Virus record (IMG/VR): IMGVR_UViG_2529292923_000001
Source of the DNA: a virus
Lineage: Monodnaviria; Loebvirae; Hofneiviricota; Faserviricetes; Tubulavirales; Inoviridae
Reading direction: 5' to 3' (one strand)
DNA: 7,781 bases
Made by a program: the position numbers and the translations under genes. Shown in pieces: positions 6,862-6,998 of the stretch. Within the stretch, counting starts at the first letter, position 1. Each line of letters opens with the position of its first letter. The notes under the pieces were generated by a model. That model was not told where the DNA came from. It made no database searches and saw nothing but the letters and a program-made list of their open reading frames with translations.

Positions 6862-6998
6862 GTTTGCACCGCAATATATTTACCGCATGCGCGCATCATA
6901 ATCACATTTAATGCGCGTTGTAAATACGCATGCGCTATGCGGGTGTAAAAAAAATGGAATAATCACCTTCTATTGAAAGGACATAGAGGTAAATTTTG
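6862..6998. promoter_or_regulatory. divergent control region: predicted sigma70 promoter for the rep operon plus ATGCGC-type palindromic operator-like repeats
   Basis: Minus-strand -35 TTTACA (6919-6924) and -10 TATGAT (6895-6900) with an 18-nt spacer. 10-bp palindrome ATGCGCGCAT (6887-6896) overlaps the -10/+1 region; 8-bp palindrome CGCATGCG (6927-6934) abuts the -35; a further ATGCGCG copy at 6911-6917. GAGGT RBS (6985-6989) for the plus-strand regulator. Confidence 0.5.

What the first reader, a model, noticed from the sequence alone, without database searches (positions are those of the whole stretch)
6862..6998. Divergent control region with ATGCGC palindromes overlapping the rep promoter
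A recognisable sigma70 promoter for the rep operon is interleaved with at least three ATGCGC-containing palindromes or half-sites, spaced about two helical turns apart. The divergently transcribed small basic protein at 6999-7211 is the obvious candidate to bind them, giving a compact repressor-operator switch for replication and lysogeny control.
Basis: partly seen in the sequence, partly recalled or inferred. Interest (0 to 1): 0.5.

Follow-up and report, generated by a model that had tools for sequence, protein, structure and literature searches.

The report
Filamentous prophage repressor-operator switch
The 137-bp gap between a small regulator gene and the replication genes of an E. coli filamentous prophage is a compact repressor-operator switch of the kind known from the cholera-toxin phage CTXphi, but its regulator has a ribbon-helix-helix fold rather than the classic helix-turn-helix one; this makes it a new member of a known kind.

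Summary
Four of the window's seven ATGCGC hexamers lie in 6887-6935, and the palindrome CGCATGCG occurs twice there. Dinucleotide shuffles reach these clusters in 3/2000 and 0/2000 trials. They overlap a good sigma70 promoter, TTTACA-18-TATGAT on the minus strand, that faces the rep operon.

Across 16 loci from six or more genera the same layout recurs: CATGC boxes at +1/-10 and beside the -35 of the rep promoter, 43 bp apart. Relatives with a different N-terminal strand carry different repeated boxes.

The family-conserved core is (G)CATGC plus TATTTACA, not ATGCGC. The middle ATGCGC box is the only polymorphic spot among E. coli copies.

Binding and repression are inferred, not shown. Verdict: interpretation supported; new member of a known kind.

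The parts
5468..6664 (-). rep gene (RstA-like rolling-circle initiator). RefSeq starts it at 6664; the longest ORF starts at 6694.
   Evidence: Pfam PF02486 Rep_trans, E=1.9e-21. phrog_453, 4e-107. 33% identity to CTXphi RstA over 92% of its length. RefSeq annotation in L001.
6664..6861 (-). 65-aa ORF, the first gene of the rep operon. Its stop overlaps the rep start (TAATG). Function unknown.
   Evidence: phrog_3104, E=8e-25. Annotated as a CDS in RefSeq. 63-65-aa ORFs called in the same position in the Photorhabdus (L023), L028 and Xenorhabdus (L031) loci; their homology to this ORF was not tested. Coordinates checked.
6862..6998 (.). Divergent control region, equivalent to ig-2 of CTXphi.
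   Evidence: Invariant among E. coli copies except at 6912-6917 and 6892.
6895..6924 (-). Rep-operon promoter: -35 TTTACA (6924-6919), 18-nt spacer, -10 TATGAT (6900-6895). Predicted start near A6888.
   Evidence: Promoter scan 10/12. The -35 (TGTAAATA on the + strand) is invariant in 13/13 aligned relatives. TATNAT-type -10 hexamers occupy the same column in most of them (weak in L025, L027, L031). The start site is inferred from spacing only.
6877..6898 (.). Operator A, TATTTACCGCATGCGCGCATCA. Contains CGCATGCG (6884-6891) and ATGCGCGCAT (6887-6896). Covers +1 and the -10 of the rep promoter.
   Evidence: ATGC 6887-6890 and AT 6895-6896 are invariant in the 13-sequence alignment. Family consensus is TATTTACAnCATGCRCRCAT. 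Shuffle statistics.
6910..6919 (.). Middle box AATGCGCGTT, in the promoter spacer next to the -35. Candidate weak or auxiliary operator. Polymorphic.
   Evidence: Five haplotypes among E. coli copies that have identical regulators. Other genera have a GCATG box 2-3 nt from TGTAAATA here.
6919..6941 (.). Operator B, TGTAAATACGCATGCGCTATGCG. Contains the -35 of the rep promoter, CGCATGCG (6927-6934) and the CGCAT/ATGCG inverted repeat. Lies between the two divergent promoters.
   Evidence: TGTAAATA and CA are invariant; ACGCATGC is present in 11/14 non-redundant loci. It sits 43 bp from the operator A CATGC box in most loci read.
6955..6963 (+). Predicted regulator promoter: extended -10, TG (6955-6956) then AATAAT (6958-6963), with no good -35 (CTATGC at 17 bp). 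Predicted start near 6970.
   Evidence: A6959 and T6963 (positions 2 and 6 of the hexamer) are invariant in 13 aligned relatives. Relatives with a poor first hexamer base carry the TG extension; those with TAnnnT do not. Not found by the simple scan, which requires a -35. Inference.
6985..6990 (+). Shine-Dalgarno AGAGGT, 8 nt before the ATG.
   Evidence: Read from the sequence.
6999..7211 (+). 70-aa ribbon-helix-helix regulator, an RstR-like repressor.
7297..7324 (+). Likely intrinsic terminator of the regulator transcript (ACCCCCGT-loop-ACGGGGGT followed by TTAT).
   Evidence: RNA fold. Sequence checked. Missed by the scan because the T run is short.

Best explanation
The window is one unit of a CTXphi-like filamentous prophage of E. 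coli integrated at dif. Region 6862-6998 is its immunity and replication switch.

The 70-aa protein is a ribbon-helix-helix repressor. As a dimer, and probably a higher oligomer through its long C-terminal helix, it inserts its N-terminal ribbon (residues about 9-15, DTTVRIN) into the major groove at short CATGC-containing boxes. The boxes are grouped into two operators. Operator A covers the -10 and start site of the rep-operon promoter. Operator B covers and flanks its -35. A weaker, variable box lies in the spacer between them.

Occupancy of these sites would exclude RNA polymerase from the rep promoter. That would shut off the small ORF, Rep and the genes downstream, keeping the prophage quiescent and blocking superinfecting phage that carry the same operators.

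Operator B also lies at about -30 to -45 of the regulator's own extended -10 promoter, so the protein probably autoregulates.

Shown here: the sequence features and their statistics, the fold prediction, the homology to annotated RstR alleles, the conservation of the architecture, and the covariation between the N-terminal strand and the box sequence. Inferred: DNA binding, the direction of regulation, the oligomeric state, the start sites and the role in lysogeny.
For: Sequence statistics: the ATGCGC and CGCATGCG clusters were reached in 3/2000 and 0/2000 shuffles. The promoter matches 10/12.

Context: prophage next to hipA and dif, in tandem copies. Rep is RstA-like.

Regulator:
- 68% identical to the 64-aa RstR or RstR-like allele of V. 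cholerae CTX/pre-CTX and to VAI1/VAI2 'RstR-like putative transcriptional regulator'.

Architecture:
- A 13-sequence alignment has invariant ATGC, AT, TGTAAATA and CA columns inside otherwise diverged DNA.
- The CATGC-to-CATGC spacing is 43 bp in most loci read.
- The same cassette is joined to three unrelated Rep families: Rep_trans, Phage_CRI/G2P and Phage_GPA. The motifs therefore travel with the regulator, not with Rep.
- The 15-mer of operator B occurs 35 times in IMG/VR. All 10 copies that also have operator A sit beside the regulator gene. The other 25 are isolated chance matches.

Specificity covariation:
- 16/16 loci with a DTTVR strand have at least 2 CATGC boxes.
- Relatives with YTSLRV, YVYNVR or KNLGVP strands have none. 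They carry CATGTA x4, AATGAA x5 and TCACAA x5 instead.

Precedent: different RstR alleles each repress their own ig-2 promoter in lux assays (PMC11509585).
Against: There is no experimental binding, repression or transcript-mapping data for this protein or for its closest Vibrio allele. That allele was not among the eight tested in PMC11509585.

The protein does not reach the curated threshold of any Pfam RHH family. The AF2 monomer cannot show the dimeric ribbon.

Some invariant columns coincide with core promoter elements (the -35 and the last bases of the -10), so part of the conservation could be promoter rather than operator.

The regulator promoter has no -35 and was not found by the scan.

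There is no LexA box in the region, unlike CTXphi-ET, so the induction route is unknown.
Confidence: 0.78

Rival explanations
1. The regulator does bind these boxes, but mainly as an autoregulator or an activator (for example a class II-like contact at operator B, upstream of its own -35-less promoter), or as a tuner of rep expression during productive chronic infection. On this reading it is not a lysogeny-maintaining repressor.
For: Operator B sits at about -30 to -45 of the predicted extended -10 promoter, which lacks a -35. Filamentous phages replicate without killing the host, so a tight off switch is not obligatory. Prophage copies are often tandem, an arrangement CTXphi needs in order to produce phage.
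Against: Operator A lies directly over the -10 and +1 of the rep promoter, and operator B directly over its -35. That is the classic geometry for repression. Positional homologues named RstR are repressors where tested (PMC11509585).
Confidence: 0.1
2. The conserved elements are mostly core promoter signals (TTTACA -35, TATNAT -10, start site), or sites for a conserved host protein. The small protein would act elsewhere or have another role.
For: The invariant TGTAAATA and the AT at 6895-6896 coincide with the -35 and the end of the -10. The middle box is free to vary. TATTTACA/TGTAAATA resembles half of several host-factor boxes (from memory, not tested).
Against: The invariant ATGC at 6887-6890 and the CATGC(G) to the right of the -35 lie outside any core promoter element. 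The boxes change when the regulator's N-terminal strand changes, in hosts of the same clades. The full two-site architecture was never found without the regulator gene among the 35 IMG/VR matches to the operator-B 15-mer.
Confidence: 0.06
3. The palindromes act as single-stranded DNA structure, such as a minus-strand origin hairpin that mimics a promoter. Alternatively the RHH protein is a TraM/ParG-like accessory factor for Rep nicking or for partition of the replicative form, with the boxes serving as its loading site rather than as operators.
Against: The fold z-score is weak: 9 of 200 shuffles fold as well. The variable positions between the arms do not covary (for example left AC against right TT in L014, read). 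The cassette is attached to three unrelated Rep families, which argues against a Rep-specific accessory role. No ParA/ParF-type partner gene is present in the 7.8-kb genome. The boxes sit exactly on promoter elements.
Confidence: 0.04

Closest known systems
RstR / ig-2 / PrstA immunity switch of CTXphi (classical RstR-ET, RstR-class)
   Same: A small regulator gene is transcribed divergently from the rstA-type rep gene, with operators in the short intergenic region over the rep promoter. The regulator-plus-intergenic region forms an exchangeable 'allele' module on a conserved phage backbone. The prophage sits at dif with a folded two-site attP (PMC11509585).
   Different: RstR-ET is a 112-aa HTH_3 (Xre) protein with no detectable similarity to this one. 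No LexA box is found here. An extra 65-aa ORF precedes rep. The host is E. coli, and the phage encodes its own secretin.
The 64-aa 'RstR' / 'RstR-like' allele of V. cholerae CTX/pre-CTX prophages (GQ466611, GU942563, KR063268) and of V. anguillarum VAI1/VAI2
   Same: True homologue: 68-70% identity with the same DTTVRINE strand. Its intergenic region has the same GCATGCGCGCAT, GCATGCTGTAAATAC and CATGC boxes in the same order.
   Different: Different host and phage backbone. The Vibrio versions lack the left TATTTAC element and carry an extra CATGC box to the right of operator B. I found no functional data for this allele. That its name is rstR-4** is my guess and is unverified.
Arc/Mnt (phage P22 immI), CopG, omega, MetJ: RHH repressors acting on short repeated boxes over promoters
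   Same: Predicted RHH fold, a small size, and several short (pseudo)palindromic boxes 8-16 bp apart placed over the -35 and -10 elements of divergent promoters.
   Different: No significant sequence similarity (hhalign to Arc 0.3% and to CopG 0.7%). Helix B is about 15 residues longer. The two operators are 43 bp apart.
TraM (pED208) and ParG (TP228)
   Different: Those proteins serve conjugative transfer and plasmid partition. Here there is no relaxase or ParF partner, and the sites lie on promoter elements.

Membership tests
CTXphi-type RstR/ig-2 immunity module (functional class) | Small regulator gene divergent from an RstA-type (Rep_trans) replication gene in a dif-integrated filamentous prophage. 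| tested here: met
CTXphi-type RstR/ig-2 immunity module (functional class) | Repeated operator sequences in the intergenic region overlapping the rep promoter. | tested here: met
   Met at the sequence level only.
CTXphi-type RstR/ig-2 immunity module (functional class) | Regulator binds those operators and represses the rep promoter in an allele-specific way. | not testable with these tools
   Needs EMSA, footprinting or reporter assays. Precedent exists for other alleles in PMC11509585.
CTXphi-type RstR/ig-2 immunity module (functional class) | LexA box co-regulating the rep promoter, as in CTXphi-ET. | tested here: not met
   No CTG-N10-CAG in 6862-6998. The only two window matches are at 4237 and 5642.
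Classical RstR protein family (HTH_3/Xre) | Sequence homology to RstR-ET, or an HTH_3 domain. | tested here: not met
   RstR-ET matches HTH_3 at 4.9e-16, while the window protein matches no Pfam family. BLASTP finds no alignment.
Short RstR-like family (phrog_2503; 64-aa CTX/pre-CTX allele) | Full-length sequence homology. | tested here: met
   phrog_2503 at 1.5e-27. 68% identity, E 8e-27. 38 close relatives and 80 representative clusters.
Ribbon-helix-helix (MetJ/Arc/CopG) superfamily | Strand-helix-helix topology resembling solved RHH structures. | tested here: met
Ribbon-helix-helix (MetJ/Arc/CopG) superfamily | Significant profile match to a curated RHH family. | tested here: inconclusive
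   No Pfam hit at threshold. ParG is sub-threshold in 8/73 members. hhalign to ParG gives 80.6% probability, E 1.3e-5. Arc and CopG are negative.
Ribbon-helix-helix (MetJ/Arc/CopG) superfamily | Obligate dimer forming an antiparallel beta-ribbon that reads the major groove. | not testable with these tools
Indirect support comes from the covariation of the N-terminal strand sequence with the box sequence.

The most novel reading that the evidence does not exclude
The RHH-type 'RstR' proteins may form a portable immunity cassette (regulator, two operators and both promoters) that has been shuffled among at least three unrelated Rep families and among Vibrio, Aeromonas, Enterobacterales and Orbales inoviruses.

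On this reading the N-terminal ribbon and the operator boxes co-diversify, giving a natural recognition code. The unusually long C-terminal helix would make a TraM-like tetramer that bridges operators A and B, 43 bp (four helical turns) apart. The hypervariable middle box would set repression strength or immunity type within E. coli.
Probability: 0.25. Interest if true: 0.55.

Novelty: new member of a known kind. Interest (0 to 1): 0.35.

Why it matters
This module is annotated only as 'hypothetical protein' in the E. coli genomes examined (26 of 5426 complete genomes carry the control region, several of them ETEC or O166:H15 isolates from humans). Recognising it as a CTXphi-style immunity switch with an RHH repressor gives a concrete handle for inducing, curing or engineering these dif-integrated inoviruses.

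It also shows that 'RstR' is a positional name covering at least two unrelated folds. And it supplies about 20 natural regulator/operator pairs with different ribbon sequences, which could be used to study RHH recognition and phage immunity.

Tried and rejected
- Megablast of the whole window against the phage collection: no match.
- Pfam on the regulator, alone and member by member: nothing at threshold.
- PDB sequence-profile search: only chance hits.
- First AF2 model from 26 close homologues: pLDDT 72, and its Foldseek search was uninformative. It was superseded by the 73-sequence model.
- hhalign to Arc and CopG: negative.
- Genome-contig scan: only 3 loci, so further loci were fetched protein by protein.
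- LexA-box search in the control region: negative.
- Rfam on the whole window: nothing credible.
- A plus-strand promoter using the left TTTACC as its -35: rejected, because no conserved -10 follows it in relatives (read).
- A hairpin or origin reading of the inverted TATTTAC arms: rejected, because the fold z-score is weak and the arms do not covary.
- Attempt to name the Vibrio allele: Mukhopadhyay 2001 (PMC99527) is not held, and the primers in PMC11509585 match none of the eight tested alleles exactly. rstR6 only resembles other family members.
- Literature searches for a name or study of the E. coli prophage found nothing relevant.

Full report
WHAT THE WINDOW IS

All long ORFs lie on the minus strand in the usual inovirus order: secretin, Zot/pI, pVI-like, a pIII with a Gly-Ser-Thr repeat, coat, a 111-aa protein in the RstB position, and Rep. 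Rep carries PF02486 Rep_trans and is 33% identical to RstA of CTXphi over 92% of its length.

The right-hand 1.2 kb is 99.5-99.8% identical to chromosomal DNA of 11 complete E. coli genomes, and parts of it occur in 97 of 5426. In O166:H15 strain JNE21-003 the element is present as two tandem copies beside hipBA. In ETEC E24377A the same rep and regulator end is joined to a different structural module.

The window starts inside the dif site and ends exactly where the next tandem copy begins. It is therefore one unit of a dif-integrated filamentous prophage.

CHECK OF THE OBSERVATION

- Four of the seven ATGCGC hexamers of the window lie in 6887-6935.
- The 8-bp palindrome CGCATGCG occurs exactly twice in the window, at 6884 and 6927.
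- In 2000 dinucleotide-preserving shuffles, a cluster of four ATGCGC in 60 nt was reached 3 times. Two CGCATGCG in 60 nt was never reached.
- The scan finds TTTACA-18-TATGAT on the minus strand at 6924-6895, a 10/12 match.
- ATGCGCGCAT (6887-6896) therefore covers the -10 and the predicted start. AATGCGCGTT (6910-6919) lies in the spacer next to the -35. CGCATGCG with CGCAT/ATGCG (6927-6941) abuts the -35.

The description is correct. The 'two helical turns' spacing is only approximate, at 24 and 19 bp.

THE REGULATOR

The 70-aa protein (pI 9.6) matches no Pfam family. It does match phrog_2503 at 1.5e-27.

Close homologues (64-99% identity) occur in Escherichia, Salmonella, Gilliamella, Providencia, Xenorhabdus, Photorhabdus and Arsenophonus. 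One of them is named RstR by UniRef.

In annotated phage records it is 68-70% identical to the 'RstR' or 'RstR-like protein' of V. cholerae CTX/pre-CTX prophages and to the 'RstR-like putative transcriptional regulator' of V. anguillarum VAI1/VAI2.

In the same V. cholerae record, the classical 112-aa RstR is an HTH_3 protein with no similarity to the window protein. 'RstR' is thus a positional name that covers unrelated folds.

FOLD

A search of 1.84 billion representative proteins gave 80 clusters. With 73 of them as the alignment, AlphaFold2 gives pLDDT 93: an extended N-terminus (1-15), helix 16-33 and helix 39-69.

hhalign of the family profile to ParG (1p94; sequence verified) gives 80.6% probability and E 1.3e-5 over the strand and both helices. 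ParG is also the commonest weak Pfam hit, in 8/73 members.

An RHH fold is therefore well supported. Membership of a curated RHH family is not established, and the dimeric ribbon could not be modelled.

COMPARATIVE ANATOMY OF THE CONTROL REGION

I collected the upstream regions of the regulator from 16 loci with the DTTVR strand. Outside the boxes the DNA is largely diverged, but the layout is constant. The family consensus reads:

TATTTACA-n-CATGCRCRCAT ... about 20 nt ... GCATG-nT-GTAAATA-C-GCATGCG

- In the 13-sequence alignment the invariant columns are ATGC (6887-6890), AT (6895-6896), TGTAAATA (6919-6926) and CA (6929-6930).
- The distance from the CATGC of site A to that of site B is 43 bp in most loci read.
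- TATNAT-type hexamers occupy the -10 column of the rep promoter in most of them.
- Two further invariant columns, A6959 and T6963, are positions 2 and 6 of a hexamer (AATAAT here), preceded by TG at 6955-6956.
- Relatives with a weak first hexamer base carry the TG. Relatives with TAnnnT do not.

I read this last feature as the regulator's extended -10 promoter. The two promoters are then back to back, with operator B between them.

WHY THE BOXES BELONG TO THE REGULATOR

First, the cassette from about 6879 to the end of the regulator gene is joined to three unrelated replication genes:
- Rep_trans, here and in most loci.
- An f1-type Phage_CRI/G2P protein in Gilliamella.
- A 666-668-aa Phage_GPA endonuclease in a metagenome contig and in a chicken E. 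coli.

In the chicken E. coli locus (L033), similarity to the window begins at about the TTTACC of operator A.

Second, the operator B 15-mer occurs 35 times in IMG/VR. The 10 copies that also have operator A all lie beside the regulator gene. The other 25 are isolated chance matches in unrelated DNA.

Third, recognition covaries:

| N-terminal strand | Loci | Repeated boxes upstream |
|---|---|---|
| DTTVR | 16 of 16 | at least 2 CATGC/GCATG boxes |
| KYTSLRV | Vibrio cyclitrophicus phage | CATGTA x4, no CATGC |
| YVYNVR | Dulem virus 53 | AATGAA x5, no CATGC |
| KNLGVP | Dulem virus 56 | TCACAA x5, no CATGC |
| DTSVRV | one relative | intermediate CGCATGTGTACAT boxes |

This is the behaviour expected of an RHH ribbon reading its operator.

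MECHANISM PROPOSED

The protein binds operator A (over +1 and the -10) and operator B (over and beside the -35), and excludes RNA polymerase from the rep-operon promoter. That silences the 65-aa ORF, Rep and the genes downstream.

Operator B at about -30 to -45 of the regulator's own promoter suggests autoregulation.

The 43-bp (four-turn) spacing and the long C-terminal helix suggest cooperative binding by a higher oligomer, as in TraM. This is speculation.

Reporter assays in the literature show that different RstR alleles each repress their own ig-2 promoter (PMC11509585). The allele homologous to this protein was not among those tested. The primers for rstR6 encode termini that resemble other members of this family, which is an inference only.

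WEAKNESSES AND RIVALS

- No binding or transcript data exist for this protein.
- Part of the conservation coincides with core promoter hexamers.
- The middle ATGCGC box is the only polymorphic stretch among E. coli copies. There are five haplotypes, all differing by transitions, while the rest of the 137 nt is invariant except 6892. It is either an auxiliary operator under selection or a mutational hot spot. This is unresolved.
- No LexA box is present, so induction is unexplained.
- A single-strand hairpin or origin reading is weak: z = -1.64 and no covariation between the arms.
- A Rep-accessory or partition role is disfavoured by the three Rep partners and by the absence of a ParA-type gene.

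VERDICT

This is a new, uncharacterised member of the known CTXphi-type repressor-operator switch, using an RHH rather than an HTH repressor. Interest is moderate to low for the locus itself. It is somewhat higher for the family-wide ribbon/operator covariation and the mobility of the cassette.

Noticed in passing
window 7700-7781 joined to 1-20: The window begins inside dif: positions 1-14 are the reverse complement of the XerC arm. Its two ends, together with 7700-7728, form a long imperfect inverted repeat of two dif-like sites around a GC hairpin (7729-7768). This resembles the folded single-stranded attP that CTXphi uses for XerCD integration. In L001 a 27/28 dif match sits at the left prophage end, and the copies are tandem with a 7952-bp period.
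   Followed up: partly
window 6912-6917 and 6892: Among E. coli copies with 100% identical regulators, all variation in the 137-nt control region falls in the middle ATGCGC box (ATGCGCG, ATGTGTG, ACACGTG, ACACGTA, ATGCGTG) plus one base at the centre of ATGCGCGCAT. All changes are transitions. The cause, selection or a mutational hot spot, is not resolved.
   Followed up: partly
L019 1483-1674 (Escherichia phage If1, U02303.1 complement 5119-5310): The annotated 'major intergenic region' of the classical phage If1 contains an intact, unannotated 63-aa homologue of this regulator family. It lies on the strand opposite to all If1 genes. tblastn gives 46-51% identity.
   Followed up: no
window 6664-6861 (- strand): A 65-aa ORF (phrog_3104, unknown function) is the first gene after the promoter and overlaps the rep start (TAATG). 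63-65-aa ORFs are called in the same place in the Photorhabdus (L023), L028 and Xenorhabdus (L031) loci, though their homology was not tested. The ORF is absent from CTXphi and from the Salmonella and Gilliamella loci.
   Followed up: no
L031 2140-2343 and 2501-2710: A Xenorhabdus contig carries two paralogues of the regulator in tandem. The second has its own TATTTACA/CATGC region between them, which could mean dual immunity.
   Followed up: no
L021, L029, L033 versus window 5468-6694: The same regulator-operator cassette is attached to three unrelated replication initiator families: Rep_trans, Phage_CRI/G2P_X_C and Phage_GPA. In L033, similarity to the window begins at about the TTTACC of operator A.
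   Followed up: partly
window 3100-3300 (pIII, 2862-4385, - strand): The minor coat protein has a long (GSGT/GT)n repeat. Its length differs between copies: 507 aa here against 549 aa in L001.
   Followed up: no
window 7553-7693 (+ strand): A 46-aa very hydrophobic ORF lies downstream of the regulator and just before the dif-like sites. It matches no family. E24377A has a different small hypothetical gene at this position.
   Followed up: no
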